Positions 7,963 to 64,000 of a stretch of DNA of 64,000 nt are shown here, one piece after another. The translations under genes and the position numbers were made by a program. Position 1 is the first letter of the stretch. Each line of letters opens with the position of its first letter. Under the pieces are notes generated by a model. That model saw nothing but the letters and a program-made list of their open reading frames with translations, ran no database searches and was not told the DNA's origin. This DNA comes from a virus (lineage: Duplodnaviria > Caudoviricetes): IMG/VR virus record IMGVR_UViG_3300028197_001778, positions 364-64,363 of that record; one strand, given 5' to 3'.

Positions 7963-7963
7963 A

Positions 7964-40105: not shown

Positions 40106-40202
40106 GATAATTCCTTAAGGTGACTAAATATAATTACACCATACGACGAAGCCCTGTAATAATCACTAAATTTAAATGTATTTTGATATTTGAGCATATT
40201 TA

Positions 40203-44900: not shown

Positions 44901-45063
44901 CTGTATAATTACTAATATTAAAGGTATTTAATATGTCTGCAGTTTCCTTATCTTTTTCTATAATTATATATAGGTATTCTACTGTCTCTTTGATCTCTGA
45001 ATTTATATTATTATTACTACTGTATTCTATTTCTGTATTTTTAAAATCAGATAATTTAATCAT
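44893..45063 (-). CDS. Unlisted 56 aa acidic protein
   Basis: ATG overlaps the upstream TAA (TAATG at 45061-45065); MIKLSDFKNTEIEY...NYTDE*; its stop overlaps the next gene's start. Confidence 0.55.
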   Translation of the reverse strand: MIKLSDFKNTEIEYSSNNNINSEIKETVEYLYIIIEKDKETADILNTFNISNYTDE

Positions 45064-47336
45064 TAATAACATTCCTGGAAACGATTAGTATAAACCAGAA
45101 TTGTATTGTGATCTACTAGCCCGCTTATACTATCTTTGACTTTTATACTCAAATTCATAATAGTTACTGATCCGCTAAAATCTAATCTAACAGCTATATT
45201 TTGATCTGAGCCACTTGCTGTAATTACAAACTTGCCATCTTCTTCTCTTAAATTAGTAACAACACTAACTTCAGATGCCTGATTTATAGTGTCTTGAATA
45301 TCTATTTCATATTTTCTTCCTACTTCTAATCTATTTAATTGTATTTTAATGTTTTTAGATAACATCATAGGAGTTTGAGAAGTAGTAGGTGTCGTTGTAG
45401 GATCTGGTGTTGGAGTTTGACTATTAGTAGGAGTAACAGTACTTGTTATTGTTGCTGTAGGAGTATTTCCAGGAGTTGAACTATTTGAAGGAGTTACACT
45501 ATTGGTAGGAGTGTTACTAACTGTTTGACTGTTTGTTGGAGTACTTGTTGTTCCAGGAGTTCCCGTTGGTAAAGGTGTTAATGGAGGGGTTTCTGTTTGT
45601 GTTAAGGTTTGTGTTGGGGTAGGAGTAGACGTTTTAGTAACAGAAGGAGTTGGTGTGTGAGTAGGAAGGGGTAACTCACCTGATACAACAAAAGCATTTT
45701 GCACATTCTGTAACTGATACATCTTATTACTGTCTAAACTGTAAGCATAAATAATTTGATTATCTGCACTGTTTAATATAGTTCTAAAATCTTGCAAAGA
45801 ATATTGGGAGGTGGTATCTACATCATCATATTCTAGATTAGTTTTCGAATAAATAAGTTTGTCTATTTGTAGAATACCGTTTGCAGCAAAATTAGAGCCA
45901 GAATTAAAAATGTGAGCATATCGGGATCTGTCTAATGTAAACAAATTATATTCAGAAGGTTTATTTAAAATGACAAAAACATTTCTCTCTAATACAGGAC
46001 TAGGAGAAAATGATGGGGTCGTTGTTTGGGTAGGTGTTGTAGTAGGGGTCTCTGTGGTTGTTGCTGTTGCTGTTATTGTTGGCGTCGGTGTTTGAGTCGG
46101 ACAATAGACATCGTCGGTATATCCTGTAACATACGCATGATTTGTAACTAAAGTTTTCCCAAGAACAAATATCCTATTTTCAGTGTCTGTCGTTCTTCTA
46201 ATATAAAGTTTGTCAAAATTCTGGTCTTCTGTTAATTTATTAACTAGCTCATCAATCGTCCAGTAATCTGAATCTATTTGAGGATTGGCTTTTTTAGGTA
46301 TTCTGTTGTCTACTTTAAAATAATCACCAGCATCACCATCATAAACTAAAATACTAGGGATTAAAGACTCAACCCCATAACATAAGCCTGTGACTGTAGA
46401 AGCAACATAATAATAAGAATAATCAGTTTGCGGTCTTGTCTGAGTAGGTGTCGGAGTAGAAGTATTAGTGCGAGTAAGTGTAGGAGTATTAGATTTTGTT
46501 GGGCTTTGAGTAGGAGTACTAGTTCTTGTATTTGTAGGAGTTAATGTTGGTGTCGCAGTTGGAGTTTCTGTATTCGTGGGAGTAAAACTAGGAGTAAGAC
46601 TAGGAGTGGCAGTATAAGTCGGTGTTACGGTTTGAGTTGGACACAAAGCGAAATCAATTACTTTAACAGCACTAACATCATTTTCATCTTTTTGTACAGT
46701 GTATATTACATTCTCTTTAATTTGTCTTACATAAAAAGTTTTAGATCCTGCGAAGTGGAATGCGTTTAAATCAATAAGTTCATCAATAGTATATTTATCG
46801 GACAACTCTGATTCATAAATTTTATCTCCAACTTCTAAAACTTTGTCTCTATCATAAATAGGGATCTCTTTCCAAGTGCTACCAAAACCGACACTTGATG
46901 TCGGAGTGGGAGTTTCTGTACTTGTAGGAGTAGGTTCGATTGCGCTATCTGTTGTACAATCTACAGTAATAAAATCTAGAACATTTATGTCAGGTATCTC
47001 TGCTTTAATAACGTTGAATCTAGACCTTGTTAAAAATACTAAAACTCTAAACTCAACATAAGCATTTGTAGTATTTGCGTCATTTGTATAATTAAAAGTA
47101 AAAGTTTTTGTTTGATCCAGATCTCCAAATTTTAATGCTGTAGCACCTGCTCCATTAACACTATTAACAGTTATACTACCAAAAGCATGACTACCTGAAG
47201 TATTTTCTCTAGTGAAAACTATAGTTTTTGCACCAGGTGTTGTGTCTGAGAACCTTAAAAGTAATTCAACACCTTGAGAGCATTCTTGAAAATTGTTCAG
47301 TTTTAATAAAGTTTGTGTAAAATTAATAGTTGCCAT
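45063..47336 (-). CDS. TP-linker array protein (N-domain, 3 middle domains, C-domain)
   Basis: CSQG..L...ITVDC; IPIYDRD...FALCP; YYVASTVTGLC...VYCP; TP tracts. Confidence 0.8.
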   Translation of the reverse strand: MATINFTQTLLKLNNFQECSQGVELLLRFSDTTPGAKTIVFTRENTSGSHAFGSITVNSVNGAGATALKFGDLDQTKTFTFNYTNDANTTNAYVEFRVLVFLTRSRFNVIKAEIPDINVLDFITVDCTTDSAIEPTPTSTETPTPTSSVGFGSTWKEIPIYDRDKVLEVGDKIYESELSDKYTIDELIDLNAFHFAGSKTFYVRQIKENVIYTVQKDENDVSAVKVIDFALCPTQTVTPTYTATPSLTPSFTPTNTETPTATPTLTPTNTRTSTPTQSPTKSNTPTLTRTNTSTPTPTQTRPQTDYSYYYVASTVTGLCYGVESLIPSILVYDGDAGDYFKVDNRIPKKANPQIDSDYWTIDELVNKLTEDQNFDKLYIRRTTDTENRIFVLGKTLVTNHAYVTGYTDDVYCPTQTPTPTITATATTTETPTTTPTQTTTPSFSPSPVLERNVFVILNKPSEYNLFTLDRSRYAHIFNSGSNFAANGILQIDKLIYSKTNLEYDDVDTTSQYSLQDFRTILNSADNQIIYAYSLDSNKMYQLQNVQNAFVVSGELPLPTHTPTPSVTKTSTPTPTQTLTQTETPPLTPLPTGTPGTTSTPTNSQTVSNTPTNSVTPSNSSTPGNTPTATITSTVTPTNSQTPTPDPTTTPTTSQTPMMLSKNIKIQLNRLEVGRKYEIDIQDTINQASEVSVVTNLREEDGKFVITASGSDQNIAVRLDFSGSVTIMNLSIKVKDSISGLVDHNTILVYTNRFQECY

Positions 47337-47342
47337 AATTAT

Positions 47343-48638
47343 TTATCCGTCCACGCAGTTAAATATAAAAAATTCATCTTCTGTAATGTCCGCAGTATCA
47401 TCTTTAATAGTCAATTTAATTAAAAACTTAGTACTACTACCTGTATAGCTTGCGACAATATTAATATTGTGTTTAGTTTCATTTGCTTTAAAAGTTTCTG
47501 TAGAAGGTTCTATTCTAGCAAACTTTTTCTCAGAAGGATGAACGACAGAGAAAGTAAATGAGTAATCATTTGAAAGTGTTAAATTGCCTACTTCTACAAT
47601 AAATGAAGAAATATTAGAGCAGTTCATGTTGAATTCGTTACTTAAAATTTCTTGATCTAAAGTAAATCTATCTATACTAAATTTTTTAGTTGTGTGATAA
47701 GGAACAATATCGTCTGCTTTGGGAGGTAGAGAACAAACATCGTCCGAAATATGGGATAAATAATATTGCTTAGATTTTAACAGTTGTGTAGAAGAAACAG
47801 TAACTGTTGGAGTCGCTGTGTTTGTTGGTGTTGTTGTTGGTGTAGCAGAAGCTGTATTTGTTGGCGTTAGTGTAGCAGTAGGTGAGACTGTTGGTGTTAT
47901 AGTATTAGTTGGTGAAAAAGATGGTGTTGGAGTAGGAGATGGACAAAGCACAAAGTCTATTACGGAAGCACCGTTGTCTCCTGTGTCTTGTACTTTATAT
48001 ATAACGTTTTCTTTTTCTTTTCTGACGTATAAAGTGTCACTATTACTAAAGCTATTATTTAAGTTATTAAACTCATATTTTTCTAATGTGTTATTTTTGA
48101 ATAAATCTTCATTAAGATTTAAAGCAGACTCTGTATCACCTGCGCTGTCGTAAACGTATAACCTCTCATATAAAGAGTGAGTTCCGTTTGTACTACTCAT
48201 AGTAGGAGTAGCAGTACTTGTAGGAGTCGGGGTAATAGGATTAAAAATAATCTCTCCGACCCCAGGTTGTTGACAGTCTATTGTTAAATAATCAATAATT
48301 TCAGAATTTACACCTAATTCAGCTTTAAATACAGAAAGCTTAGCTTCTGCAATTAGAATCCTGGATGTCACAACAACAGCTTGGTTAGCGACAGAAGTAT
48401 CATAATCAAATGTTAAGATTAATTTTTCACCAAAAGTTTTAGAAACATTACTGATACCTGTCACACTATCAAAACTAGCATCGGTGAATACATGCCGACC
48501 AATGTTACTAGATTTACTAATTGTTACCGTATTAGAAACCTCACTAGGATATATCGTAAAAATTACATTTAGTCCTGAAGTACATTCAGCAGAACTTGTT
48601 GTTTCTATAATCGTATTATTAAATAATATTTTAGACAT
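47343..48638 (-). CDS. TP-linker array protein
   Basis: CTSG...LTIDC; LYVYD...DFVLCP; YYLSHISDDVC...FFIFNC. Confidence 0.8.
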   Translation of the reverse strand: MSKILFNNTIIETTSSAECTSGLNVIFTIYPSEVSNTVTISKSSNIGRHVFTDASFDSVTGISNVSKTFGEKLILTFDYDTSVANQAVVVTSRILIAEAKLSVFKAELGVNSEIIDYLTIDCQQPGVGEIIFNPITPTPTSTATPTMSSTNGTHSLYERLYVYDSAGDTESALNLNEDLFKNNTLEKYEFNNLNNSFSNSDTLYVRKEKENVIYKVQDTGDNGASVIDFVLCPSPTPTPSFSPTNTITPTVSPTATLTPTNTASATPTTTPTNTATPTVTVSSTQLLKSKQYYLSHISDDVCSLPPKADDIVPYHTTKKFSIDRFTLDQEILSNEFNMNCSNISSFIVEVGNLTLSNDYSFTFSVVHPSEKKFARIEPSTETFKANETKHNINIVASYTGSSTKFLIKLTIKDDTADITEDEFFIFNCVDG

Positions 48639-48641
48639 AAT

Positions 48642-50690
48642 TTATCCAGAACATGAGAAAATGAAAAATTCGTTTTCGGTTATACTAGTTGTCAAATTTT
48701 CGATTGAAAACTTAACCAATATTTTATTAGATGAGCCACTATAAAAAGATATGATATTAATATTTTGAATAATCTCTTTAGCTATAAAAGTTTCTTGATT
48801 AGGTTGAACACTAAAACCTGATTCATTACCATGTACAACACTAAAGTTAAACTTGTATCTATTGCCAACAGTAAGATTTCCTAACTTAACAATAAAGCTA
48901 CTACCATTGACACAATCAAATTCAAATTCATTATTTACAATCTGATTATCTGTAGTAAATCTGTCTACTGTAATATTTTTTGTTTTATGATAAGGATCTA
49001 TAGCATCATTATCTGGTGGCAAATCACAAACATTATGTATACTATCAGACATAAAATATAATTCTACATTTCTAACATCTGTGGCTGATGGGGTAATAGT
49101 TGATGTAACTGTAGATGTGTTTGTAACAGTAGGTGTCTGTGTTGCAGTTGGTACTGGTGTTTTATTAGGAGTGTTAGTTTGTGTTGCTGTGGGTGTTTGT
49201 GTTGTGGTGCTGGATGGTGTTATAGTAGCTGTGGGACTATTTGTAGGTGTGGTGCTAGGAGTAACCGGAGGTGTCGGTGTTGGAGTAGGACACAATATAT
49301 AGTCAGCTATTTTAACAAAGTCAGTATTCTGTAAATTAATAGTGCCATAGGCTCCGTTTCCTGCTGGACTAGATGCATAATAAAGAGTATCTATATTTTC
49401 TGAATGAAGAACATCAATAGTAATAGTTCCATTAGCCGTACCAATAATATCATCATAGTTTTGAGCAAGATTAAGTTCTCCTGCAACTTTTTGTATCCAG
49501 AAAGCATACTGACCAGTATTAACACTGAAGTTGTATCTAGAATTTTTCTTTAGATTTAGCGTTGGGTTTAATTCTCCGTCAATTAAAAATCCCACCTTAT
49601 CCGAAGTATAATTAGCTTTTAATTTGATGGAAGAAGAACTATTCCCGTTCGTAATATTAAAAGAAATAGTGTCATCTTTGTTAACAGAAATTGTTATTGG
49701 AGAAATGTTTGTAAATGGATTGAGTGTGGTAACTTTATTATCTACAGTCTCTATTACTGCATTATTCTTTTTGATTTCTATTCTAGAATCTACAGAAAAA
49801 ATAAAATTAGGTTCTTCTTGACCAATCTTTAATGTTATTTCTCCATCATGCTTAGCTGTTATAATAAGATCTTTATTGCCTACGTCATATCTTTCTGTAA
49901 TCAAAGGATTACTTGGATTGCCTAAATTCAATCTTGCAACAGAAGTAGCTTGTCCTACCGAATTGTGTGTAAGAGATTTGTCGTCTAAGGTTACGCTAAC
50001 AGCTATGGTTTCTACTATATCATCTGTTGTGTATTTTTCTAGTTTAAATAAAACATTCTCTCCACTCTTTTTAATATATAAATCATCTTTACCTGGTATA
50101 GTTTGCACAATACCCTTCAAATCAGACAATGCCCAAAACTGAGCACCTTTTGAGTCTTTATATATTTTTTCTTCTAATCTTAAATTTTGACTTTTGTCGT
50201 AAACTTGTATTTCAGCTACACTATCTGGTACAACAGTAGTGCTCGATGTAATAGAGGGTGTGTAAGTAGGAGTAGTAGTAGGAGTAGCTGTGGCTGTTGG
50301 CGTTGCAGAAGGTAATAGAGCTGTAGGGTCGCATATAATAGTTATAAAATCTTCTACAGGTTCCAAGGATGAATTTGTTGTATTTGATAGAGAGCCTATT
50401 AAAACAAAAGCTGCTATGTTTTCAAATTGAGAGAAAACAGTAATCGATTGTTCAGAAGAAGTGGCTTCAAAAGTATAATGCTGTGTATTATCATCAACTA
50501 CTACAAAAGACTGTCCTGATGAGTTATTTAACTTAAAACTTAAAGATCCTTCGTCTTTAGTTTTTTGTAAAGTTAATTTATATGAATTTCCACTAACAAG
50601 CTCAGATAGAGATACTACAAAAGACCTGCCAGTTTGACATTCATTGGCATTATTAAAAACTAATTTTGTACTTGCAAATTTAATCTTCAT
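48642..50690 (-). CDS. TP-linker array protein with an insert of about 230 aa
   Basis: CQTG...ITIIC; IQVYDK...[insert]...DYILCP; YFMSDSIHNVC...FFIFSC. Confidence 0.8.
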   Translation of the reverse strand: MKIKFASTKLVFNNANECQTGRSFVVSLSELVSGNSYKLTLQKTKDEGSLSFKLNNSSGQSFVVVDDNTQHYTFEATSSEQSITVFSQFENIAAFVLIGSLSNTTNSSLEPVEDFITIICDPTALLPSATPTATATPTTTPTYTPSITSSTTVVPDSVAEIQVYDKSQNLRLEEKIYKDSKGAQFWALSDLKGIVQTIPGKDDLYIKKSGENVLFKLEKYTTDDIVETIAVSVTLDDKSLTHNSVGQATSVARLNLGNPSNPLITERYDVGNKDLIITAKHDGEITLKIGQEEPNFIFSVDSRIEIKKNNAVIETVDNKVTTLNPFTNISPITISVNKDDTISFNITNGNSSSSIKLKANYTSDKVGFLIDGELNPTLNLKKNSRYNFSVNTGQYAFWIQKVAGELNLAQNYDDIIGTANGTITIDVLHSENIDTLYYASSPAGNGAYGTINLQNTDFVKIADYILCPTPTPTPPVTPSTTPTNSPTATITPSSTTTQTPTATQTNTPNKTPVPTATQTPTVTNTSTVTSTITPSATDVRNVELYFMSDSIHNVCDLPPDNDAIDPYHKTKNITVDRFTTDNQIVNNEFEFDCVNGSSFIVKLGNLTVGNRYKFNFSVVHGNESGFSVQPNQETFIAKEIIQNINIISFYSGSSNKILVKFSIENLTTSITENEFFIFSCSG

Positions 50691-53600
50691 GTGGTTGGTC
50701 CTGTAACATTATATAATAATATTTCTGATTGGGTATAGTTTGTAATCAAATTAAGTATATCCATTTTCAATAAGAATTTTTTAGATGTTCCTTGATAAAG
50801 TAATATTGTATTAATATTTTGTTTATTCTCTGAAGCTGTAAACTCTAGAACAGCTGGAAAAAGACTAATCTCTCCTGCTGCTTCTCCGGTTATTAATTCA
50901 GAAACAGTTTCATCTTCACCTTTATAATAATGACTAAAAGTAACTTTATAGTTGTCGTCTTCTGTTAAATTACCAAGATTAATAATTAAACTTGTAGCCT
51001 CGTCAGGTTTAATCTCTTGTAATTTATCTACAATATCAATTGTAATATCATTATTGGGCATAGCAACTTTACACAACTCAACTTCATTATAACTCACATA
51101 GTAGGAGACTTTATCTAAATCATCTGTAGCTGTCGGAGTAGGAGTACTGGTAGATACCGGAGTTGCTGTTCCTGTTATAGTCTGCGTTACAGAAGATGTG
51201 TAAGTTGGAGTATTTGTGTTGGTTGGGGTGACTGTTGGAGTGGCTGTATTGGTTGGTGTCTGCGTAGGTGTTGTTGTATTTGTTGGAGTTGGGGTTGGAC
51301 ACACCGTAGGATTTGTTATATATGCGTCACCAACATCAAAAGTTTCTGCTCCAAATCTTGCTATATATGTATCTATAATAGTAGCGGTCAAAGCACTAGC
51401 ATCTAAATCAGATCCTGATGCAAATCGAACACCATTAGGATTATCACCAGAACCGTTAATTACTACTCCATTATTGTTTTTAATTCTCAACCAAGTAGCA
51501 TCAGCATGAGTATTTGCAGTGTAGATCGGGGACTGTAACCCCGACAAATCACGCTCATCTTTCTGCAAATAGCTGTATTTTACCAATCCCGTAATCGTAG
51601 TCCTTGAGTTATTGTGCCAAGTCTCTGGTTCGGTTTCGTTGTATACAGTATTGATATCGTCAGAAATTAAAGGATTTTTATAAATAGCTAATAGGTTTGC
51701 TGGTAGAGGATGAACAGGATATTCCTCGGTTTGCCCGAGGTCTGGGTCTGTTAGTGTCATAGATCCTGTTTTATTCAAAGCCCCAGCTTGATTTAAAACA
51801 CTATAATCTAAAATACTTTTATTGTCAGAGGCAGCCAGAGTGGAGTATTTATTAATCTGGCTTTGAGTAATCAAGTTTGACAGGTCAGAACTGATAGTAG
51901 TGATAGCATATGTATCACCACCTACTCTTCCAACACCTTCTTGATCATATATTACATCTCCAGGTTGTGGTCTGTATCCATTAATTCTAGATTTTTGTTC
52001 AGCAGTATGTGAGCTAAGATTGTTAAGATTAAATTCTCCTATAAATACAGAATCCCAGAACACATCGAATCTCGCGCGACCACAGGAATGTCCTCCTGAA
52101 GTAGGAGCTTTTCTGTTATTGCTAATGTTTAAAGAATAACTATCGTAGTTATCATCATCATATATCATCTCAACACTATAATCAACGAGTCTAAGTCTAC
52201 CAGGAATTAATATTCCTCCCAGAGCTTCTTGCTCTAAAACCTCATTAATTTGATAAAGACTTCCGTTAGATGTGTCTTGCAGATACAGAACATTAACAGA
52301 AGAATCGACACCACTCAATAAATCTCTTAAGTCACTAAACTTCCATGTGTTTTCTTCGCCATCTTTGTAAATCTTATCTCCTTCAGCAAAAACCTGCTCA
52401 TTTCTTTTAAACACTTCTATCGTTGCGAACCCTGTGTCTGTTACACAGAAACCGTTGAGATTATCAGAAACTCTAAAGGTAGCAGTAAATAGGTTTTGAG
52501 TAGGAGTAAAAGACGCAGTGTTAGTTACTGTAGGCGTATTAGTCGCAGTCGGAGTAGGTGTCGGACAAACTGTTTCTTTAACAGCAATAACTGCATAGCC
52601 GTTAGAACCCTTAGAAACATGGAAAATAGTTGTAGAGAAAATCGTGGTGTTAGATTGTCTTATGTATACCTTACTAGGTAAAGACCCACTATTCGTTATC
52701 TTTCCTTCTGTATCAGTTTGAGCTAGTCCTATTGCTATTAAAATGTCATCATAATTGTATGGATTGAATACAACATCTTTATATAAAACAGAACCCACAT
52801 CAGTGGTTCCTTCTTGATAATAAATGTACATTTGACCCAACGGACTGCTATAGCAAAGTCCTTCTTTTGTCTCGTCTACGTTCCAAAGTGTTTCATCAAA
52901 AAAGTCTGTTGCACTAGGGGTGACTGTCGCTGTATTAGTAGGCGTACTTGTATTAGTAGCGGTAACGCTTGGCGTAAGAGTATTTGTTGCTGTATTGGTA
53001 GGTGTAGCCGTTGCACTGCTGGTGTATGTTGGAGTGTTTGTTGCGGTACTAGTAACTGTAGATGTAGCAGTTGATGTTGGGGTTTGTGTTATTTTAGGAG
53101 TTTCTGTAGGACAAACTAAATACTCTACTACATAACTATCTGGTTCTGTATTTTTATCCCCCCTGAGATTATCAATATCAGAAGATAAACTATCTGTCTC
53201 ACTTTCATTAATCTTTCTGATTTTTGCTATAATGTTCTCATTAGGTTTCTTAATAAATAATTCTTCAGCGTCTGAATTTACTATATTTTGAAGCTCTTCG
53301 AAATCCCAACGAGATAATTTATTATCTTTAATTCTTTTTAGTACTTCGTTAAACTGTAGAAGATTATTCCTATCTGCTATATCTATAGACTGAATACCTG
53401 TATAGGTAGGAGTAGGGGTAGGAGTACTCGTTATTGTGCCTGTAATAGTATTAGTAGGCGTAGAAGTAGTCGTTGTTGTATTTGTTGGAGTAGGAGTAAC
53501 TAATACCACTTCTGAACAGTCGATAGCTACAGAGTCGTTTATGTCATTACTAACGTATTGATTTGTAGAAGTGTCTAGAGTTAACAGATCAGACTGTATA

Positions 53601-53866: not shown

Positions 53867-53877
53867 AATAATTTAAC

Positions 53878-54753: not shown

Positions 54754-54754
54754 T

Positions 54755-56347: not shown

Positions 56348-57270
56348 TCGGGACACCTGTATATAAAATAATTATTTTCTTTAGTGTTATTGCTTAAGTC
56401 TTCTATACCAAATTTTACAACGAAAACACTAACTGATTCTATTATATTGATTAGGTTTAGAAAATCTACTGATGGGTCTGTAGCTGTAAAGGTCTCTAAT
56501 CTCTCGTCTAGTGAAATTTTACTAGATAAAGATTTTGAATACAATTGATAACCAACCCTATACTGATTTCCTGATACGAAACCGGAGACTCTTACTGCTA
56601 GAGGAATAGTAGAAGGACAAGATGATAAATTTTCCTGATAACCTGAATAATCTAGTTTAAATTTGTTTAAGTCGTCTGAAATCTGATACACAGAATCAAA
56701 ATTTGTATTTGCTAAATATGTTAATACTTCCGGAGTAGTACTAGGAGTATATGTCGGAGTTTGCGTATAGGTCGGAGTTTGTGTGGTTGTTGTTGTATTA
56801 GTTGGAGTTTGCGTAGGAGTGTTGGTAAGTGTGTTAGTTATTGTGGCTGTATATGTCGGAGTGTTAGTGGGTGTAGGACTAGGCGTAGCACTAGGAGGTA
56901 TCGGGTTGTAAGTAATCGTAGCAAGATCAGAGGGGTTATTTATATTTTTCCCCGGAATTGATCCGTCCTTCCCTTGTATCCACGCTAATAATTCTATAAT
57001 ATCCAAAACAGTAGGATATTGTATATCTTGCCCAATTGAAGGAAGAGTTTTAATATTGCACAAACGCCTAAATTCTAAAGGAACTATATCCAACCATTGT
57101 TTTGGAGTGCTGTCTATCACTGCATATTTACCATCTCCGTCTTGTATAACATCCAATAGGGTTAGTATGTCAAAAACATCAAGCTGAGGCAAACCATCAG
57201 CATTTGTAAAATCAGCAGCAACGTTACCATAGTAATATACAGGACCAGGTCCCAAGTCGTAATCAGCCAT
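56344..57270 (-). CDS. TP-linker array protein with N-terminal dockerin-like region
   Basis: YGNV..D...DG...[12 protein letters not shown] and [15 protein letters not shown] twin helices; C-domain ends YFIYRC. Confidence 0.7.
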
Positions 57271-57283
57271 TGTTTAACAGATC

Positions 57284-58801
57284 CTAACTTGTGCTATAGA
57301 CATTAGTGTATTGATTATTGTTCCCATCTGCCAAAAGAATATTTAGGGGCGCAGCATTATTCAAGTTACTAGATGCTGCATTAAACTCTGTTATGACTTC
57401 CAAAAAACTTTCCTTATCAAAAGTAATACTTCCACCAGCAAAAACTATATTAGAACTACCATTATCACATATTTGAAAACCACCGTCATTTAATGATGCT
57501 GGAAAAGTACTAATAATTGAACTAGGTGTGAGAGTAATCTGATTGTTTAAATCTATTTGACCACCCGCAATAGTTGTGTCACTACCAGGAGGTATAAAAT
57601 TAAACAAACTTATAATATTACTTAACGTTCCATCATTATTAAGTTTAAAAGCCATGTCTTTTAAGGTGTATTCAGCGTCACGATCAGTTATTTTAAAGTT
57701 TTTAATCGATGCTGTTGCAGTGTTTGTAGATGCTGGGTCATAACCAATAGTAAATTTAATCTTGTCTACATCTGATATATTAAATAAAGCGGTATTATTA
57801 GCAATAAGAAAACCCCGATCACCTACTAAACTAGGATTTAAAAACAACCCTGTAGTAATGTCAGGTTCTGAAACAACAATTGGATTTCCAGTAACTAATT
57901 TTACATTATTAAAATTAATCTCTATACTATTTACACTACCATCGGTATTACTAGCAGGAGGTTTCAAAAATGCTGTGCTAACACTACAAGTAACTTTGTT
58001 GTTAATGGTATCAAAACTTAAACTGAAAGGAGTTTTCTGGAAAACATCTATAGGTGTAGGAGTAGGAGTGCTGGTATTGGTAACCGTTTGTGTTAATGTG
58101 GGCGTAGGACTAGGAACTATTAAGTAATCTGTTACTTCAGCATCAAGATCAGAATTAATTTCTACAACCTTAATTAAATCTTCTCCGGGTTTTCTAATAT
58201 ATACTTTACCACCAGAATCTAAAGAAACAGGAAGTTCGACTTCTACAAAAGAATCTCCTCTTAATTCAAATACAACCTCTCCTTTTTCTAAAACCTCGTT
58301 AAGATTAAAAAGATCTATTTGAGCAATTTCTGTTACTGTTGGAGTTGGAGTTAAAAATGGAACAACACTATCGCATTGAACAAAAAAAGTGTACACGTTA
58401 GGACCGTTACCATTTGGTGTCCCGGAAGTTTTCCCTGTAAGTTCATATGTAGAATCAGAAGCTCCTCTATTCTTTTTCTCTAATTTATACCCAAACTTAT
58501 AGAGAGAGTCGTTTTGCAATCTTATCTTATATGTAAAATCTTTACTGGTAACGCTACTACTTGCTGTGAAAGAAGGTAACGAAGCTGGTAAAGCAGCCTC
58601 TGTCGAACCTGTACTAGGAAATAACAACATTGTTGGCTGATCATCAGATAGTCCTCCTTCAGAAAGTAGTGGAACTACTGTTAATCTATAGTCCTTGTTT
58701 CTTTCTAATCCTAAAAGATTAACAGAAACATCGATACCATCGAAACAATTTTGTGTTGTACTAGTAAAAATTGGTGTTGGTATATTAACATGTTCTGACA
58801 T
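57284..58801 (-). CDS. TP-linker array protein with C-terminal tandem cohesin-like domains
   Basis: CFDG...FFVQC; middle domain VYIRKPGEDLIK; the usual C-domain is replaced by two beta-sandwich-like units (VNSIEINF...ITDRD; IAGGQIDL...LLADGN). Confidence 0.7.
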   Translation of the reverse strand: MSEHVNIPTPIFTSTTQNCFDGIDVSVNLLGLERNKDYRLTVVPLLSEGGLSDDQPTMLLFPSTGSTEAALPASLPSFTASSSVTSKDFTYKIRLQNDSLYKFGYKLEKKNRGASDSTYELTGKTSGTPNGNGPNVYTFFVQCDSVVPFLTPTPTVTEIAQIDLFNLNEVLEKGEVVFELRGDSFVEVELPVSLDSGGKVYIRKPGEDLIKVVEINSDLDAEVTDYLIVPSPTPTLTQTVTNTSTPTPTPIDVFQKTPFSLSFDTINNKVTCSVSTAFLKPPASNTDGSVNSIEINFNNVKLVTGNPIVVSEPDITTGLFLNPSLVGDRGFLIANNTALFNISDVDKIKFTIGYDPASTNTATASIKNFKITDRDAEYTLKDMAFKLNNDGTLSNIISLFNFIPPGSDTTIAGGQIDLNNQITLTPSSIISTFPASLNDGGFQICDNGSSNIVFAGGSITFDKESFLEVITEFNAASSNLNNAAPLNILLADGNNNQYTNVYSTS

Positions 58802-58809
58802 TTTTTATC

Positions 58810-60252
58810 CTAACTTGAACACCTGTAAATGAAATGCTGACTATGATTTATCCCATCCGTTACATTGTTTAATGTAAATTTGACAACATATGGACTACCA
58901 CTACTATTTGTAATACTAACAACAGAGTTGAACGTATAAGTGTCTATCAAAGCTGTAAAATTTTGATTAAGAGCATCACTGTCTGGTCCTTCTAAAACGG
59001 CTATTTTATCAGAATGATTGACGCTATATATCTCAAAATCTGCAAAGTATGTTTTTCCTAATATCAAGTTAGAAGCTGATAATGACAATATTTTTGCACC
59101 CGGACAAGATACCGTATAATCACTTCCTGTATTTATATTTACACCTACGCTGTGAGGATTGCTTCTATCTGGAACACGACTATAAAGGTCTGTAGAATTG
59201 CTTTGTACATAGTACTTTTGTAAATTCGGCGTATCTGAAGGAGTATTTGTTGGAGTAGGTGTTTTATTTGGGGTGTCCGTGTGTGTAGGAGTTTGAGAAG
59301 TAGTGGTTGTGTTAGTAGGGGTATTTGTAGGTGTTTCTGTGTTGGTAGGTGTTACAGTAGGAGTTTGGGTACTGGTTTGGGTACTGGTGATAGTTTGTGT
59401 GGGTGAAAATGTTAGTGTTATAGTGACAGTAGGTGTTGAAGTAGAAGTATATGTTGGCGTATTGGTCGGTGTTTCACTATGTGTTGGTGTGTTGGTAGGT
59501 GTTGCACTACGAGTAGGAGTATTTGTGGGGGTTTCACTATGTGTAGGAGTAGGGGTTTGACTAGGAACTAACAAGAAATCGGTTAATATAGCATTACTAC
59601 TACCATCTATTTCCACAACTTTAATAAGATCTTCTCCCATTTTTCTTAAGAAAACCTTACCATCTGAATTCAAAGTCTGTATAGCTTCAACCTCAGTCTG
59701 TGACCAAGTATCACCTACAGCCTGCAATAATACCTCGTCCTTTTCCAAAGTTCTGTCTATATCGACAACACATAATTTAGTAGGAGGAGTTCTACTCGGA
59801 GTAATTGTCGGAGTAGATGTATTTGTTGACGTTATTGTATGTGTAGGAGTAACGGTATTAGTCGGGGTAGTAGTGGAAGTAGGCGTAGTGGTAGGAGTTA
59901 AGAATAAAGGTGCTGTTCCGCAATTAATAGAAAACTGTTCTGTCAGACCATTTAGAATACTGCTATTTCTAAAAAGTTTAGCATTAAAAATAGTAGATAT
60001 ATTACCTTGTAATTTAATATTAAATGTTGATGTCGTATTAGTTACTGTTTGTGAAGCAGGAATAACTACTTCTGAAGGAGATATTACGCTGGTTTCATTT
60101 GTCTCTCCAGAGTTAGACACTTCTTCAATTTTTAAGGTATAAATATCTGAAGGGTTTAAATCAGATAATGTTATGACAAAATCAATACCATTTAAACAGG
60201 TCGTTGCGTCAGACTGTATAAAGTTGGATTGTAAATTTAAAGCTTCTGCCAT
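58810..60252 (-). CDS. TP-linker array protein
   Basis: Start taken at the TAATG overlap 60252; CLNG...FSINC; KLCVVD...DFLLVP; ends HFIYRCSS. Confidence 0.8.
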   Translation of the reverse strand: MAEALNLQSNFIQSDATTCLNGIDFVITLSDLNPSDIYTLKIEEVSNSGETNETSVISPSEVVIPASQTVTNTTSTFNIKLQGNISTIFNAKLFRNSSILNGLTEQFSINCGTAPLFLTPTTTPTSTTTPTNTVTPTHTITSTNTSTPTITPSRTPPTKLCVVDIDRTLEKDEVLLQAVGDTWSQTEVEAIQTLNSDGKVFLRKMGEDLIKVVEIDGSSNAILTDFLLVPSQTPTPTHSETPTNTPTRSATPTNTPTHSETPTNTPTYTSTSTPTVTITLTFSPTQTITSTQTSTQTPTVTPTNTETPTNTPTNTTTTSQTPTHTDTPNKTPTPTNTPSDTPNLQKYYVQSNSTDLYSRVPDRSNPHSVGVNINTGSDYTVSCPGAKILSLSASNLILGKTYFADFEIYSVNHSDKIAVLEGPDSDALNQNFTALIDTYTFNSVVSITNSSGSPYVVKFTLNNVTDGINHSQHFIYRCSS

Positions 60253-61955
60253 TATGAACACCTAAAAATGAAATGCTGATTATGTGTAATACCTGTCAGT
60301 ACTCTCTTAATACTGAATTTAACAACAAAAATACCAGACCCTGACGTAATATTTACATTCGTATTAAAGTTTTGTAAAGTATTATTAGAAATAAAGTTTA
60401 CTAAACCAGATTCAGTAAGAGACACTCCTGAATAATCAGGACTATACAACTCAAATCCAGCCGTATAAAATTCTCCCACATTGATATTATCAATACTTAA
60501 ACTAATTAGACTAATACCAGGACAACTTAAACTTTCTGTATACGAATTCACTGCTAGATTAAATGTTGTATCGATATCTAAATATTCAAAATAAGTTTCG
60601 TTTAATGTATCATGGATCATGTAACAATCTAGTTGTGGACTTGGGGTAGGTGTTGATGTTGTCGTTGGCGTAGATGTATTTGTTGCTGTATTAGTCTGCG
60701 TATTAGTAGGTGTTGGTGTCTGAGTGTTAGTTCCTGTGTTTGTATTGGTTGGTGTGTTAGTTGGAGTAGTTGACGGACTTGCGGTGTTGGTTGGGGTTGT
60801 GCTAGAAGTAACTGTATTAGTAGGTGTATTGGTTGTGGTTGAGGTATTGGTTGGTGTGTTGGTTTGAGTCGCTGTATTCGTAGGAGTATTAGTAACACTA
60901 CTAGTAATTGTAGGAGTAGAAGTTTGTGTATTGGTAGGTGTATTTGTGGGAGTTGTAGAACTTGTAGGAGTTTGAGTTCGTGTAGGAGTCTGAGTTCTAG
61001 TATTACTCGGAGTGACACTACTTGTTAGAGTATTAGTTACTGTAGAGGTGTTAGTTGGTGACGAAGTTTGAGTATTCGTAATAGTGTTTGTCGGAGTGTT
61101 GGTTGGGGTTTCTGTGTTTGTTGGTGTTACCGTGGGTGTTGATGTATTTGTTGCCGTGTAAGTCTGAGTTGATGTGTTTGTTGCTGTGTGTGTGGGAGTA
61201 GATGTGTTTGTTGGAGTATTAGTTGGTGTTTTTGAAGGGGTGGGGGTAGGCGTAGGAATAGTCTGATAATCTACTACCTTAAGAACCCCACCGACTTCTT
61301 GTACAACTTCAATAAGATTGGTTCCAGGCTTGCGAAAATAGAAGGTAGTTTCAGAACTACTTAACAATGTTTGAAGCTCAGTCAAAGTCCATTGGTCTGT
61401 GGCAACGCTTGTCTCGTAAATAATTTCATTATAATTTAAGACATTGTCTTCATTGTATACAGTAATTTCTTTTAAGGAAGTGTCAGTAGGAGTATTTGTG
61501 GGAGTTTCGCTATTAGTAGGTGTGTTAGTAGTAGTATTAGTCGGTGTTGTTGTCGTAGTCGTGGTATTAGTTGGAGTCTGAGTAGGTGTTGATGTATTAG
61601 TGCTCGTATTGGTTACAGTAGGGGTTAGTAAAGGAGGACTATCAACACCACAATCTAACGCTAGACTATCATCATCTAAAGTTGTTCCAGAAGAGTCCTT
61701 AAGAAATATTCTAAAAGCATGACTTCTAGAACTTTGAGCAGTTGTTCCTATAATAAATTGAGAAGTAAGTCCAGTAGCAACAAACGTTAAAGGAAATCTC
61801 GCGTCAAAAAATACATCTCCAAAATCCACGATTGCGTCAAGCACATAAGTTTGTCCAGGAGTTAAATCAGAAGCAGTGATTATAAAATTAAACCCATTGG
61901 TGCATCCTGGGGCTGTAATATTAAGAATGTTTTTATTAAAATTAATTGATGGCAT
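60252..61955 (-). CDS. TP-linker array protein with a TP tract of about 200 aa
   Basis: CTNG...LALDC; ITVYNED...DYQTIP; ends HFIFRCS. Confidence 0.8.
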   Translation of the reverse strand: MPSINFNKNILNITAPGCTNGFNFIITASDLTPGQTYVLDAIVDFGDVFFDARFPLTFVATGLTSQFIIGTTAQSSRSHAFRIFLKDSSGTTLDDDSLALDCGVDSPPLLTPTVTNTSTNTSTPTQTPTNTTTTTTTPTNTTTNTPTNSETPTNTPTDTSLKEITVYNEDNVLNYNEIIYETSVATDQWTLTELQTLLSSSETTFYFRKPGTNLIEVVQEVGGVLKVVDYQTIPTPTPTPSKTPTNTPTNTSTPTHTATNTSTQTYTATNTSTPTVTPTNTETPTNTPTNTITNTQTSSPTNTSTVTNTLTSSVTPSNTRTQTPTRTQTPTSSTTPTNTPTNTQTSTPTITSSVTNTPTNTATQTNTPTNTSTTTNTPTNTVTSSTTPTNTASPSTTPTNTPTNTNTGTNTQTPTPTNTQTNTATNTSTPTTTSTPTPSPQLDCYMIHDTLNETYFEYLDIDTTFNLAVNSYTESLSCPGISLISLSIDNINVGEFYTAGFELYSPDYSGVSLTESGLVNFISNNTLQNFNTNVNITSGSGIFVVKFSIKRVLTGITHNQHFIFRCS

Positions 61956-61993
61956 TTAATTTAAAATCCTATTTAAATCGTTTATTACATATA

Positions 61994-64000
61994 TTATACA
62001 CTAGGACTTACTGTTGTTGTAGGAGTATTTGTGTTTGTTATAGTATTCGTAATTGTGGGAGTATTTGTTGAAGTAGTAGTTGGTGTAGGTAAAGGATCAC
62101 ACCTAACTACTATGTACCTGGTTTGGGCGACACTTGTCGTATTATCGGTCAAAGTATAGGCTAATACATAGAACAGTCTAATTCCTGAATATTGAATAGT
62201 AAAGTTTAAATTCTTGGAAGTATCATTGGCGATAAATGATCCAGATGCTCCTGATATTCCCACGGTGAACAATGAAGCATCTTCTTCATAAGCAGACATT
62301 GTATAAGAATAACTATTACCTGCAATTAGTTTACCCATATTAATAGCTAATAATCTATTAACACAGCTTTGCGGATCAGAGGCATTAATTAAGACATCTA
62401 TATCAAAAATATTAACAACATCTGCTTGTTTATAATAAACATCAGCTGCACTATCAGATAGATATCTTAAGTTAGCGTCTAAGTTTTCTGTACCTGTTTG
62501 TGTAACCGTTGGTGTCATAGTATTAGTACGTGTAATGGTCGGTGTCGGTGTTTGAGTTCTTGTTTGTGTTGGTGTGCTAGTTTGTGTTGGTGTTCCGGTT
62601 TGCGTGGTTGTGTTGGTGTTTGTCGGAGTTTGAGTAGCTGTATTAGTAGGAGTAACAGGAGGCGATCCTGTCTGTGTTGGTGTCGATGTATTTGTAGGAG
62701 TATGGGTTGCCGTTGCAGAAGCTGTCGGCGAGGCTGTTAATGTAGGAGTTCTTGATGCTGTTTGACTTTTTGTAACTGTTTGTGTTGGAGTTCCTGTTAA
62801 AGTTGCTGTACTTGTCTGTGTTGGAGTACTCGTATTTGTAGTAGTATTGGTGTTTGTTACTGTATTAGTTGGAGTCGATGTATTAGTTGCAGTTGCTGTA
62901 GTTGTTACAGTATTTGTCGGCGTCTGCGTAGCTGTGTTAGTAGGAGTGACACTACTTGTAGGTGTTGGGGTTTTATTAGGAGTATCGGTCTGTGTAGGTG
63001 TTTGAGTACTTGTTTGAGTCACAGTATTAGTAGGAGTCTGTGTGGCGGTACTGGTAGGAGTCGCACTAGGAGGTACCCCAATAGCTAAAATACTATTTCT
63101 ATATATATTAATATCTTCCCAAAGACCATAAATAATTTTTGGAGTAGTTTCTACACGACCAAGAGCACCAAATGTTAAGTTTGAACCACTATTAGCACCC
63201 CAACCATAACATACTCCACTAGTAGTAATAGCTATAGAATAATCATCTCCACAAAATACTTTCTTCCAAGTGTTGTTATACAGTAAGCTCTGATCACTTC
63301 TGTAAGGCATTATTTGATTATCTGTATTGTCAACAATACCTAATTGAGATTTGTCATTACGACCCCAAGCGTATAGATGACCGTCTTCGTCAATACCTAA
63401 TCCGTGATATCTTCCAAGATCTGCAGTAGTCCATGTTTTTCCTTCTGGATGTGGTACAAATTCTGGGAAATGGACATAAGGAGTATCGTAACCTATTCCT
63501 AATTGACCATAAGTATTGTCCCCGAAACCAAATAGATAGTTTGTATCAGCTTGTCTCAACAACAAAGACCCGTAGTAATTACCATGTAATTGATCAAACT
63601 CGTTTCTGTTCAGTTTTAATAAAGAAAGATCCGTTTCATTATTATCTATTTCAAATTCACTAGGACCATCGTATAAAACAGATACTAAAGGGATTTCTCT
63701 GTCTGTAATATCGGGATTTTTATTCGTAATTGTTTCTATATCAAAAACAGTATAGTCTGTAGTAATAATAGGAGTGTCGTTATCTACAATATTATATCTA
63801 TATAGTCTATAATTATTAGCATTGATATAATACAAAGTTTTTAAATCAGCAAAAGCTTGACTTCTAACATTGTCATCAATAAATTTTAATCCTGTATAGG
63901 CATTGTCGTAAGTATTAGAGTCTGGATTATTAGTAGGAGTTTCTCTCCATTCCCATAAACCGTAATTTGCTTTTATAGCATACCAGACATTAGGAACCTG
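61994..64000 (-). CDS. Partial (5'-truncated) RCC1-repeat + TP-linker array protein
   Basis: The frame stays open from TTG 63835 to the window edge; FGFGDNTYGQLG, HLYAWGRNDKSQLG, CYGWGAN; array C-domain ending IVVRC. Confidence 0.8.
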   Translation of the reverse strand, partial: QVPNVWYAIKANYGLWEWRETPTNNPDSNTYDNAYTGLKFIDDNVRSQAFADLKTLYYINANNYRLYRYNIVDNDTPIITTDYTVFDIETITNKNPDITDREIPLVSVLYDGPSEFEIDNNETDLSLLKLNRNEFDQLHGNYYGSLLLRQADTNYLFGFGDNTYGQLGIGYDTPYVHFPEFVPHPEGKTWTTADLGRYHGLGIDEDGHLYAWGRNDKSQLGIVDNTDNQIMPYRSDQSLLYNNTWKKVFCGDDYSIAITTSGVCYGWGANSGSNLTFGALGRVETTPKIIYGLWEDINIYRNSILAIGVPPSATPTSTATQTPTNTVTQTSTQTPTQTDTPNKTPTPTSSVTPTNTATQTPTNTVTTTATATNTSTPTNTVTNTNTTTNTSTPTQTSTATLTGTPTQTVTKSQTASRTPTLTASPTASATATHTPTNTSTPTQTGSPPVTPTNTATQTPTNTNTTTQTGTPTQTSTPTQTRTQTPTPTITRTNTMTPTVTQTGTENLDANLRYLSDSAADVYYKQADVVNIFDIDVLINASDPQSCVNRLLAINMGKLIAGNSYSYTMSAYEEDASLFTVGISGASGSFIANDTSKNLNFTIQYSGIRLFYVLAYTLTDNTTSVAQTRYIVVRCDPLPTPTTTSTNTPTITNTITNTNTPTTTVSPSV

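What the first reader, a model, noticed from the sequence alone, without database searches (positions are those of the whole stretch)
45063..64000. Gene-order-colinear daisy chain: a domain split across consecutive gene boundaries
Seen: intact internal copies of the middle domain read [Y/W/F-x-V...L/F-C]-~8 aa-[I-x-V-Y/F...LY-R/K...C-P], e.g. YYVASTVTGLC...VYCP (45063 gene), WNVDETKEGLC...TVCP and FRVSDNLNGFC...TVCP (50687 gene). The first middle domain of each protein lacks the leading segment, while an orphan copy of that segment sits before the C-domain of the preceding gene. All 10 junctions fit. The 61994, 60252, 58810 and 56344 genes carry Tyr-type orphans ([43 protein letters not shown]) and are followed by Cys-less acceptors (TIP, LVP, IVP, LVP). 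The 53878, 50687, 48642 and 47343 genes carry Cys-type orphans (EFLC, VELC, HNVC, DDVC) and are followed by acceptors ending CP. The 57284 and 54755 genes have no orphan and are followed by genes with no middle domain. The last gene (45063) has no orphan. Inference: protein n completes a domain of protein n+1, by donor-strand-like complementation with inter-chain disulfides in the distal half, building an ordered heteropolymeric fibre. I know of no described phage system like this, but could not search.
Basis: partly seen in the sequence, partly recalled or inferred. Interest (0 to 1): 0.92.

Follow-up and report, generated by a model that had tools for sequence, protein, structure and literature searches.

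The report
Phage fibre genes sharing split domains
Eleven neighbouring genes of an uncultured phage encode bead-on-a-string proteins in which a small domain lacks its first strand while a look-alike of that strand sits in the gene before, which suggests, but does not prove, that the proteins clip together in gene order.

Summary
Eleven tightly packed minus-strand genes (63835 to 45063) of a 64-kb uncultured phage contig encode modular proteins. Most read: Ig-like N domain, Pro/Thr linker, small alpha/beta M domain, linker, an 11-residue "orphan", Ig-like C domain.

New evidence:
- The orphan matches the first strand (b0) of complete M domains from distant proteins.
- AlphaFold2 makes b0 a confident strand of a complete M domain. 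It leaves the orphan unplaced beside its own C domain.
- The first M after an N domain lacks b0 in 79 of 79 sequences. Later M domains have it in 29 of 29.
- The b0 Cys and the domain-end Cys are both present or both absent in 26 of 26 complete M domains.

Pairing with the next gene's product is favoured over pairing within one protein. Donor-only proteins (G1, G7) and an acceptor-only protein (G11) keep the relevant residues. This rests on few independent data points. The one complex prediction gave no answer. "10 of 10" overstates the statistics.

Verdict: real, unusual and unannotated. I put trans strand donation at about 0.45.

The parts
61994..64000 (-). G1, 5' end cut by the contig end. 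RCC1-repeat region, long Pro/Thr linker, Tyr-type orphan, C domain, Pro/Thr tail. Orphan-only (donor-only) protein.
   Evidence: Full-length orthologues of 1347-1675 aa show only the orphan-plus-C module and no N or M domain in 9 of 9. RCC1 Pfam hits lie above the cut-off on P0206.
62435..62467 (-). G1 orphan RYLSDSAADVY (Tyr type)
   Evidence: score 8.0.
60252..61955 (-). G2: N domain, M1 (ends TIP), 209-aa linker, orphan, C domain
61251..61484 (-). G2 M1, lacks b0
60591..60626 (-). G2 orphan CYMIHDTLNETY (Tyr type, with an extra Cys444 in front)
   Evidence: the same Cys is present in P0028.
58810..60261 (-). G3: N domain, M1 (ends LVP, extra Cys164 in strand b1), orphan, C domain
   Evidence: the Cys is kept in P0015, P0018 and P0347.
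59554..59787 (-). G3 M1, lacks b0
59182..59214 (-). G3 orphan YYVQSNSTDLY (Tyr type)
   Evidence: score 8.0.
57284..58801 (-). G4: N domain, short linker, M1 (ends IVP), then a different 254-aa C-terminal domain. No orphan (acceptor-only).
58112..58333 (-). G4 M1, lacks b0
56344..57270 (-). G5: unrelated N-terminal domain, linker, Tyr-type orphan, C domain. No M domain (donor-only). Fused to a G4-like protein in P0041.
56686..56718 (-). G5 orphan [11 protein letters not shown] (Tyr type)
54755..56356 (-). G6: N domain (no Cys here, two Cys in the L012 orthologue), M1 (ends LVP), long linker, divergent C-like domain without an orphan (acceptor-only)
55661..55882 (-). G6 M1, lacks b0
53878..54765 (-). 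G7: N domain, linker, Cys-type orphan, C domain. No M domain (donor-only). Five Cys.
   Evidence: Eight of 8 printed orthologues (39-94% identity) keep the five Cys and are 289-293 aa long.
54211..54243 (-). G7 orphan YQLAADAEFLC (Cys type)
50687..53866 (-). G8: N domain, M1 (ends CP), complete M2, complete M3 with an insertion of about 290 aa, orphan, C domain (no Cys pair)
53105..53395 (-). G8 M1, lacks b0
52559..52903 (-). G8 M2, complete (b0 WNVDETKEGLC ... TVCP)
51293..52495 (-). G8 M3, complete, with a large insertion (b0 FRVSDNLNGFC ... TVCP)
51071..51103 (-). G8 orphan YYVSYNEVELC (Cys type)
   Evidence: score 10.9.
48642..50690 (-). G9: N domain, M1 interrupted by an insertion of about 220 aa (ends LCP), orphan, C domain
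49287..50225 (-). G9 M1 with insertion, lacks b0
49026..49058 (-). G9 orphan YFMSDSIHNVC (Cys type)
   Evidence: score 5.6.
47343..48638 (-). G10: N domain, M1 (ends LCP), 53-aa linker, orphan, C domain
47937..48179 (-). G10 M1, lacks b0
47733..47765 (-). G10 orphan YYLSHISDDVC (Cys type)
   Evidence: pLDDT is below 50 when folded with its own C domain. Score 7.5.
45063..47336 (-). G11: N domain, M1 (ends LCP), complete M2 (Cys type), complete M3 (Cys-free), divergent C-like domain. No orphan (acceptor-only). Last gene of the series.
   Evidence: same plan in P0007 and P0008.
46635..46886 (-). G11 M1, lacks b0
46095..46424 (-). G11 M2, complete M domain used for the fold prediction
   Evidence: mean pLDDT 81.8, b0 is strand 4-10.
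45657..45992 (-).

Best explanation
The eleven genes encode structural, fibre-like proteins of an uncultured tailed phage. They are built from globular beads joined by long Pro/Thr linkers.

One bead, the small alpha/beta M domain, is split across gene boundaries. Its first strand (b0, the orphan) lies just before the Ig-like C domain of protein n. The rest of the domain (M1) follows the Ig-like N domain of protein n+1.

My reading is that the orphan of protein n inserts into the M1 of protein n+1 and completes its sheet. In the last four junctions (G7>G8>G9>G10>G11) the contact would be locked by the same disulfide that ties b0 to the last strand in unsplit M domains. In the first four (G1>G2>G3>G4 and G5>G6) a Tyr/aliphatic pair replaces that disulfide.

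This gives ordered chains that start with donor-only proteins (G1, G5, G7) and end with acceptor-only proteins (G4, G6, G11). G4 and G5 are one polypeptide in another lineage, so at least G1 to G6 may form one chain.

Shown: the anatomy, the homology of the orphan to b0, and the Cys coupling. Inferred: the binding itself, its n to n+1 register, disulfide formation, and the fibre.
For: 1. Orphan equals b0. A position matrix built from 13 b0 segments of 9 distant proteins, none from this lineage, scores the eight orphan starts at -0.4 to 10.9. Five of 8 are at or above the 99th percentile of 5000 random 28-aa windows (Mann-Whitney p 5.8e-6). The M1 starts give 0 of 8 at or above the 95th percentile.

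2. b0 is part of the fold. AlphaFold2 on a complete M domain gives mean pLDDT 81.8 and pTM 0.77, with b0 as strand 4-10 at pLDDT 83-86.

3. The orphan is not placed in its own C domain. In the orphan-plus-C construct, residues 1-37 have pLDDT below 50, while the Ig part has 82-97.

4. Rule across the family. The first M after an N domain lacks b0 in 79 of 79 sequences. Of these, 72 were flagged by script. The other 7 are G4-likes whose upstream residues are the end of the N domain, by my reading. Later M domains are complete in 29 of 29. Many of these sequences are close relatives.

5. Cys coupling. By my reading, 26 of 26 complete M domains have both the b0 Cys and the end Cys (23) or neither (3). 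The split pairs in n to n+1 register follow the same rule in 8 of 8 junctions here.

6. Register.
- b0 before core across the boundary is the native order.
- G1 orthologues have an orphan and no M domain in 9 of 9.
- G7 orthologues keep an odd orphan Cys and have no room for an M domain in 8 of 8. The previous gene's M1 (G6, P0013, P0042) has no Cys, but the next gene's M1 (G8, P0009) has one.
- G11, P0007 and P0008 keep the M1 Cys and have no orphan.
- G2 Cys444 and G3 Cys164 are the only odd Cys of those two proteins. Both are absent from P0014/P0348 and P0029/P0027 of other lineages.
- Within-protein mismatches exist: P0075 has M1 LCP but an orphan ending in Ser, and P0349 has M1 LAP but an orphan Cys.

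7. Cys pairs of the N and C domains are lost together (G6 N domain, G8 C domain). This argues that Cys in these proteins work as disulfide pairs.
Against: - No model or experiment shows the contact.
- The linkers between M1 and the orphan of one protein are 53 to about 660 residues long. Self-complementation is therefore sterically possible and entropically favoured.
- The Cys/Tyr types occur in two blocks. Only one junction (G6/G7/G8), the two ends, and the G2/G3 Cys pair distinguish the two registers.
- In the second lineage, one junction breaks the rule in the trans register as well: the P0075 orphan ends in Ser, while the P0012 M1 ends LCP. That assumes the same gene order, which I inferred only from coinciding contig lengths.
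- Odd Cys remain unexplained in either model: G5 C71, G8 C595, G11 C756 and P0029 C354.
- The orphan motif alone is not significant in a whole-window scan.
- The M model rests on 24 sequences and has no structural neighbour, so strand order, and whether b0 is an edge strand, are unknown.
- Phage proteins fold in a reducing cytoplasm, so any disulfide would form only after release.
Confidence: 0.45

Rival explanations
1. Complementation is real, but the partner is not set by gene order. The orphan completes the M1 of its own chain (a circularly permuted M domain with the linker looped out). Alternatively it completes the M1 of another copy of the same protein (a swapped homo-oligomer, as in trimeric phage fibres), or any M1 of matching Cys or Tyr type.
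For: - All five proteins here that carry both elements (G2, G3, G8, G9, G10) have matching types.
- Linkers of 53-209 residues, or about 660 in G8, could loop back.
- The standard unit N-M1-orphan-C is one polypeptide, and G4+G5 are fused into such a unit in P0041.
- Four orphans and four M1 of each type would also fit a promiscuous network.
Against: - Six of eleven proteins have only one of the two elements.
- G1 (9 of 9) and G7 orthologues (8 of 8) have an orphan and no M domain.
- The G11 family keeps an M1 Cys with no orphan.
- P0075 and P0349 show within-protein type mismatches.
- Core before b0 is the permuted order, not the native one.
Confidence: 0.27
2. There is no complementation. 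N-M1 and orphan-C are simply two evolutionary modules. M1 is stable without b0. The orphan is a leftover of an old recombination inside an M domain, or a short element with another role, for example docking on the virion. The junction pattern only reflects modular architecture.
For: - Orphan presence coincides exactly with the standard C domain (8 of 8), and M1 presence nearly coincides with the N domain (8 of 9).
- The alternation has a chance probability of only about 1 in 20 to 1 in 2 once architecture is allowed for.
- The motif is not significant window-wide.
- Odd Cys occur elsewhere.
Against: - The orphan is conserved from 39 to 98% identity relatives and scores as b0 of distant complete domains.
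- The Cys of orphan and M1 obey the both-or-neither rule of complete domains (8 of 8 here).
- The model leaves the conserved single Cys in G7-type orphans and G11-type M1 without a partner.
- AlphaFold2 gives the orphan no place beside its C domain.
Confidence: 0.23

Closest known systems
Chaperone-usher pili (type 1 Fim, P Pap): donor-strand complementation and exchange (recalled from general knowledge, not from a call)
   Same: Subunits with an incomplete domain are completed by a strand from the neighbouring subunit. Paralogous subunits encoded side by side assemble in a fixed order. The chain has one end with an acceptor only.
   Different: - The acceptor here is a small alpha/beta domain with no structural neighbour, not an Ig-like pilin.
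- The donor strand is internal, in front of a C-terminal Ig-like domain, not an N-terminal extension.
- No chaperone or usher gene was recognised in the proteins scanned.
- It is a phage cluster, and the subunits are joined by long Pro/Thr linkers.
- No homology.
Phage T4 long tail fibre, gp34-gp35-gp36-gp37 (recalled)
   Same: Several different fibre proteins encoded in a row join end to end in the order of their genes.
   Different: No sequence relation was found (Pfam and PHROGs). To my knowledge T4 joints are not split domains. T4 fibres are rigid trimers, not beads on Pro/Thr strings.
Split single domains that reassemble, for example Gram-positive pilin CnaB domains and the engineered SpyTag/SpyCatcher pair (recalled)
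   Same: One strand of a small domain, carried on another chain, completes the fold. The contact is then locked covalently.
   Different: The lock proposed here is a disulfide or a Tyr contact, not an isopeptide. The split is natural, repeated eight times, and placed at gene boundaries.
Complete M domains in other uncultured-phage proteins (P0010, P0011, P0020, P0057, P0065, P0066, P0088, P0102)
   Same: The same domain family and the same Pro/Thr linkers. b0 has the motif [YF]Y.S.....C, and there is a Cys at the domain end.
   Different: In those proteins the domain is unsplit and often repeated in tandem within one chain. They have neither the N domain nor the orphan-plus-C module.

Membership tests
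Chaperone-usher pilins (donor-strand complementation) | Acceptor is an Ig-like pilin fold lacking its last strand | tested here: not met
   The acceptor M domain is predicted as mixed alpha/beta (5 strands, 2 helices). It has no match at E <= 0.001 in the PDB or BFVD.
Chaperone-usher pilins (donor-strand complementation) | Donor strand is an N-terminal extension of the next subunit | tested here: not met
   The orphan lies internally, after a linker and before the C domain of the preceding gene product.
Chaperone-usher pilins (donor-strand complementation) | Periplasmic chaperone and outer-membrane usher genes alongside | tested here: not met
   Pfam and PHROGs scans of 35 of the window's larger ORFs gave replication genes, a glycosyltransferase, RCC1 repeats and a baseplate-connector-like match only. 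Small ORFs were not scanned.
Ig-like beta-sandwich domains (N and C domains) | Beta-sandwich fold similar to solved Ig-like domains | tested here: met
   AlphaFold2 gives pLDDT 82-97 over the C domain. Foldseek finds 26 PDB chains at E <= 0.001, all beta-sandwiches (MSP domains, pilus chaperones, protease Fn3-like domains), with TM at most 0.51. The N and C profile HMMs hit each other's domains. This is fold-level only; no Pfam family.
M-domain family (unnamed; defined here by profile A2) | Full-length match to the M profile | tested here: met
   The profile search found 206 proteins at E <= 0.001. Of the 150 listed, I took 35 with near full-length profile coverage as candidate members and dropped four of them (see Tried and rejected). 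The rest match only profile positions 43-67 repeatedly, and I treated those as noise.
PHROG phrog_15511 (unknown function) | Match over the globular parts of the profile | tested here: inconclusive
   Hits at E 3e-18 to 9e-4 cover only the Pro/Thr linker stretches of G5, G7, G9, G10 and G11.
RCC1 repeat proteins (N-terminal part of G1 only) | Pfam RCC1 / RCC1_2 above the curated cut-off | tested here: met
   P0206, the full-length G1 orthologue: RCC1 83.0 bits (cut-off 21.7) and RCC1_2 50.5 bits (cut-off 22).
T4-type long tail fibre proteins | Sequence homology to gp34-gp37 families | tested here: not met
   No such PHROG or Pfam family among the hits for the scanned cluster proteins. Only the neighbouring 1565-aa protein matches a baseplate wedge tail fibre connector PHROG (phrog_677, E 2.4e-20).

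The most novel reading that the evidence does not exclude
A phage builds an ordered hetero-oligomeric fibre of up to eleven different proteins without any assembly machinery. Each gene product hands the first strand of a split domain to the product of the next gene. The distal four joints lock by inter-chain disulfides once the virion meets oxygen. Gene order is therefore the assembly plan. This would be a convergent, non-homologous counterpart of pilus donor-strand complementation, using a domain fold not seen in solved structures.
Probability: 0.35. Interest if true: 0.9.

Novelty: new variant of a known kind. Interest (0 to 1): 0.74.

Why it matters
If the orphan strand of one protein completes a domain of the next, this would be the first phage example I could find of fibre assembly by strand donation. 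Two full-text searches turned up none. It would also be a natural case in which a split domain, repeated eight times, encodes the order of subunits.

That would give:
- a simple rule for reading the assembly order of unannotated phage fibre clusters from sequence;
- a new small domain fold;
- a set of orthogonal split-domain connectors, some with a built-in disulfide lock, of interest for protein engineering.

Even if binding is not confirmed, the cluster defines an unannotated family of Pro/Thr-linked bead proteins in an uncultured phage lineage. That lineage has no relative among the 50,697 phage records searched at DNA level, and its polymerase is under 35% identical to any of them.

Tried and rejected
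Complex prediction. I folded G11 M1 (alignment A6) with the first 46 residues of the G10 orphan-plus-C construct (alignment A4). The verdict was "no answer": scores 0.01 and 0.03 against a mark of 0.32, and no controls were run.

Genomic context of distant relatives was not obtainable.
- Scans of viral contigs with G10, A1, A3, P0028, A7 and P0210 gave nothing or Pro/Thr-linker matches only. My profile HMMs found no family member in L009 or L014-L022.
- One scan of genome contigs gave nothing.
- The single metagenome scan gave four close relatives only.
- As a substitute I grouped proteins of a second lineage by coinciding contig lengths (81147, 49195 and 46430 bases). This shows co-occurrence at best, not gene order.

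Fold of the M domain. No match at E <= 0.001 in the PDB or BFVD. The ESM Atlas best score was 0.88, below the 0.9 level.

Whole-window scan for the b0 motif. The top observed score was 12.3, against a mean top score of 12.0 and a maximum of 16.8 in 20 shuffles. The best hit lies in the RCC1 part of G1 and is probably chance. The motif alone is too short, so I tested it at linker-to-domain boundaries instead.

Promoter and terminator scan of 44500-64000. Counts did not exceed the shuffles (66 against 81.7; 9 against 7.2), so there are no internal units to report.

Dockerin-like reading of the G5 N domain and of P0041. This was my impression from the sequence. Pfam gave no family for either, so I dropped it.

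Rows dropped.
- Of the 35 proteins I took as family members, I dropped P0073, P0090 and P0117 (repeat proteins) and P0114 (a chimeric fragment) before the tables.
- I left P0006 (near-identical to G8), P0087 and P0049 (fragments) out of the 26 complete M domains.
- The fourth M domain of P0011, seen by eye, is also not counted.

Supplementary files of papers were not consulted, and no paper was read beyond the search listings.

Full report
WHAT THE WINDOW IS

The window is bases 364-64363 of a linear virus record of 64,363 bases, judged 43% complete. GC content is 25-36%.

The plus-strand half encodes replication genes:
- a DnaB-like helicase, a primase and an exonuclease;
- a Pol III alpha-like polymerase in two ORFs, with an RNase_T-family exonuclease ORF between them;
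- a glycosyltransferase.

The minus-strand half encodes very large proteins:
- Three carry RCC1 repeats.
- One matches a baseplate wedge tail fibre connector PHROG.

No phage record resembles the cluster at DNA level. The polymerase is under 35% identical to any of 1432 matching records. This is an uncultured tailed phage of an undescribed lineage. The eleven genes lie among its structural genes.

CHECKING THE OBSERVATION

Eleven minus-strand ORFs, G1 (61994) to G11 (45063), are packed with gaps of 3-38 nt or overlaps of 4-13 nt. Segmentation by composition, MAFFT alignments and profile HMMs give these architectures:

| Gene | Architecture |
|---|---|
| G2, G3, G9, G10 | N - linker - M1 - linker - orphan - C |
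| G8 | the same, with two complete M domains inserted |
| G11 | N - M1 - M2 - M3 - divergent C, no orphan |
| G4 | N - M1 - unrelated domain |
| G6 | N - M1 - divergent C, no orphan |
| G1, G5, G7 | orphan - C behind other N-terminal parts, no M domain |

- The N and C domains are homologous: each profile hits the other's domains.
- Pfam names none of the globular domains. The PHROG hits are to the linkers only.
- Four independent metagenome contigs keep the same ORFs in the same order at 66-90% identity. The gene boundaries are therefore real.

THE ORPHAN IS THE MISSING STRAND

A profile of the twelve M domains found 206 proteins at E <= 0.001 among 1.84 billion representatives. About 35 match along the whole profile. 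The others hit one short stretch repeatedly, and I treated those as noise.

Distant members carry unsplit M domains: P0010, P0011, P0020, P0057, P0065, P0066, P0088 and P0102. These begin with [YF]Y.S.....C and end with a Cys.

I built a matrix from 13 such b0 segments of nine proteins, none from this lineage. It scores the eight orphan starts at 8.0, -0.4, 8.0, 2.3, -0.3, 10.9, 5.6 and 7.5. The null mean is -4.1 and the 99th percentile is 4.5. The Mann-Whitney p is 5.8e-6. The eight M1 starts score -5.0 to -1.0.

Three orphans (G2, G5, G7) do not stand out on score. They are orphans by alignment.

AlphaFold2 results:
- A complete M domain gives mean pLDDT 81.8, with b0 as a strand (residues 4-10) followed by a short helix that carries the Cys.
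- For the G10 orphan-plus-C construct, the Ig-like part reaches pLDDT 82-97. The first 37 residues, orphan included, stay below 50.

The caveat is that the alignment has only 19 rows.

Across 93 family sequences, many of them close relatives:
- The first M after an N domain lacks b0 in 79 of 79. Seven of these I had to reclassify by eye.
- Later M domains have it in 29 of 29.

CYSTEINES

The Cys pairs of the N and C domains are either both present or both absent:
- N domains: 8 with both, 1 with none.
- C domains: 7 with both, 1 with none.
- The G6 N domain has none here and both in L012.

By my reading, complete M domains have both the b0 Cys and the end Cys in 23 cases and neither in 3. That is 26 of 26 concordant. 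In the Cys-free ones the b0 position holds Tyr.

The split elements follow the same two states. Four orphans end in Cys and four in Tyr. Four M1 end in CP and four in [VI]P.

CIS OR TRANS

The elements alternate along the DNA: orphan, M1, orphan, M1, and so on. The series starts with an orphan (G1) and ends with an M1 (G11).

Pairing each orphan with the next M1 (trans, n to n+1) matches all eight pairs. It also keeps the native order, b0 before core.

Pairing each M1 with the next orphan (within a protein or unit):
- leaves the G1 orphan and the G11 M1 alone;
- pairs the G6 M1 (no Cys) with the G7 orphan (Cys).

Further points for trans:
- Full-length G1 orthologues (1347-1675 aa) have no N or M domain in 9 of 9.
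- G7 orthologues from 39 to 94% identity keep five Cys, including the orphan Cys, in 289-293 aa. That leaves no room for an M domain (8 of 8 printed).
- G11, P0007 and P0008 keep the M1 Cys and have no orphan.
- G2 has one extra Cys at the start of its orphan, and G3 has one extra in strand b1 of its M1. Both are absent from the corresponding proteins of other lineages: P0014 and P0348, P0029 and P0027. The strand-helix-strand order in the model would allow b0 and b1 to lie parallel and adjacent. I could not inspect coordinates, so this geometry is inference.
- P0075 and P0349 show within-protein mismatches.

Counting odd Cys in the window: the trans register leaves three unexplained, the cis register seven.

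AGAINST

- The two types occur in blocks, so few data points separate the registers.
- Long linkers would allow self-complementation.
- In the second lineage the junction P0075 to P0012 breaks the Cys rule. That gives 7 of 8 junctions fitting, assuming the window's gene order, which I could only infer from coinciding contig lengths.
- Odd Cys also occur where no model needs them.
- "10 of 10" is not strong statistics. Given the unit architecture, only the order of three orphan-only and three M1-only proteins is free (1 in 20). G4+G5 are one fused protein in P0041.
- G4>G5 and G6>G7 have no strand link. The data fit two or three chains as well as one.

COMPARISON WITH KNOWN SYSTEMS

The principle resembles donor-strand complementation of chaperone-usher pili. 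The gene-order logic resembles the T4 long tail fibre. Both comparisons are recalled, not tested by homology.

Membership of these families fails on every tested feature:
- the fold of the acceptor;
- the position of the donor;
- the absence of accessory genes.

Two full-text searches found no phage system of this kind (listings only).

VERDICT

The anatomy is real, conserved and unannotated. The orphan is best read as the detached first strand of the M domain.

| Reading | My probability |
|---|---|
| The strand is donated to the next gene's product | 0.45 |
| Complementation with another partner | 0.27 |
| No complementation | 0.23 |

The remainder is left open. The one complex prediction returned no answer and counts for nothing either way (see Tried and rejected).

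Noticed in passing
window 6094-10447 (+): A Pol III alpha-like DNA polymerase is encoded in two ORFs (6094-7962 and 8828-10447). A 229-aa RNase_T/DnaQ-family exonuclease ORF (8142-8831) lies between the halves. The nearest phage polymerases are under 35% identical.
   Followed up: partly
G4 57284-58801 and G5 56344-57270; protein P0041: In another lineage, G4-like and G5-like proteins are one 841-aa polypeptide: N, M1, the G4 C-terminal domain, the G5 N-terminal domain, linker, orphan, C. G4 and G5 are therefore a split or fusion pair.
   Followed up: partly
G6 N domain, window about 55960-56356; L012 2778-4352: The N domain of G6 has no Cys in the window or in P0013. The L012 orthologue has both Cys of the pair. 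The C domain of G8 (and of P0009) has lost both of its Cys. Paired loss suggests real disulfides.
   Followed up: partly
window 35505-36020 (-): A 171-aa ORF outside the cluster has a partial match to the C-domain profile (E 7.2e-07, profile positions 37-100). It also has a weak head-closure PHROG hit. No other N, M or C element was found in 1-45000.
   Followed up: partly
G9 about 49330-50025 and G8 about 51310-52230 (-): Two M domains carry large insertions, about 220 aa in G9 M1 and about 290 aa in G8 M3, between the core strands and the last strand. Pfam gave no hit reaching its cut-off for G8 or G9; the inserted parts were not examined separately.
   Followed up: no
G1 C terminus, window 61994-62095; proteins P0210 and P0031: G1 ends in a 33-aa Pro/Thr tail after its C domain. 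In one lineage the G1-like protein (P0210, 1675 aa) continues into a further domain. By eye, that domain resembles the C-terminal extension of the G10-like P0031.
   Followed up: no
window 36476-44900 (-) and G1: Three large structural proteins of this phage carry RCC1 repeats: the 1565-aa and 1209-aa proteins and G1. The 1565-aa protein also matches a baseplate wedge tail fibre connector PHROG.
   Followed up: partly
window 10958-12628 (+): A group 1 glycosyltransferase is encoded in a genome whose structural proteins have hundreds of residues of Thr/Pro linker. Whether the linkers are glycosylated is open.
   Followed up: no
profile search: Most of the 150 listed hits of the M profile are large repeat proteins that match only profile positions 43-67, many times over. 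This suggests the central strand pair of M resembles a common beta-hairpin repeat.
   Followed up: no
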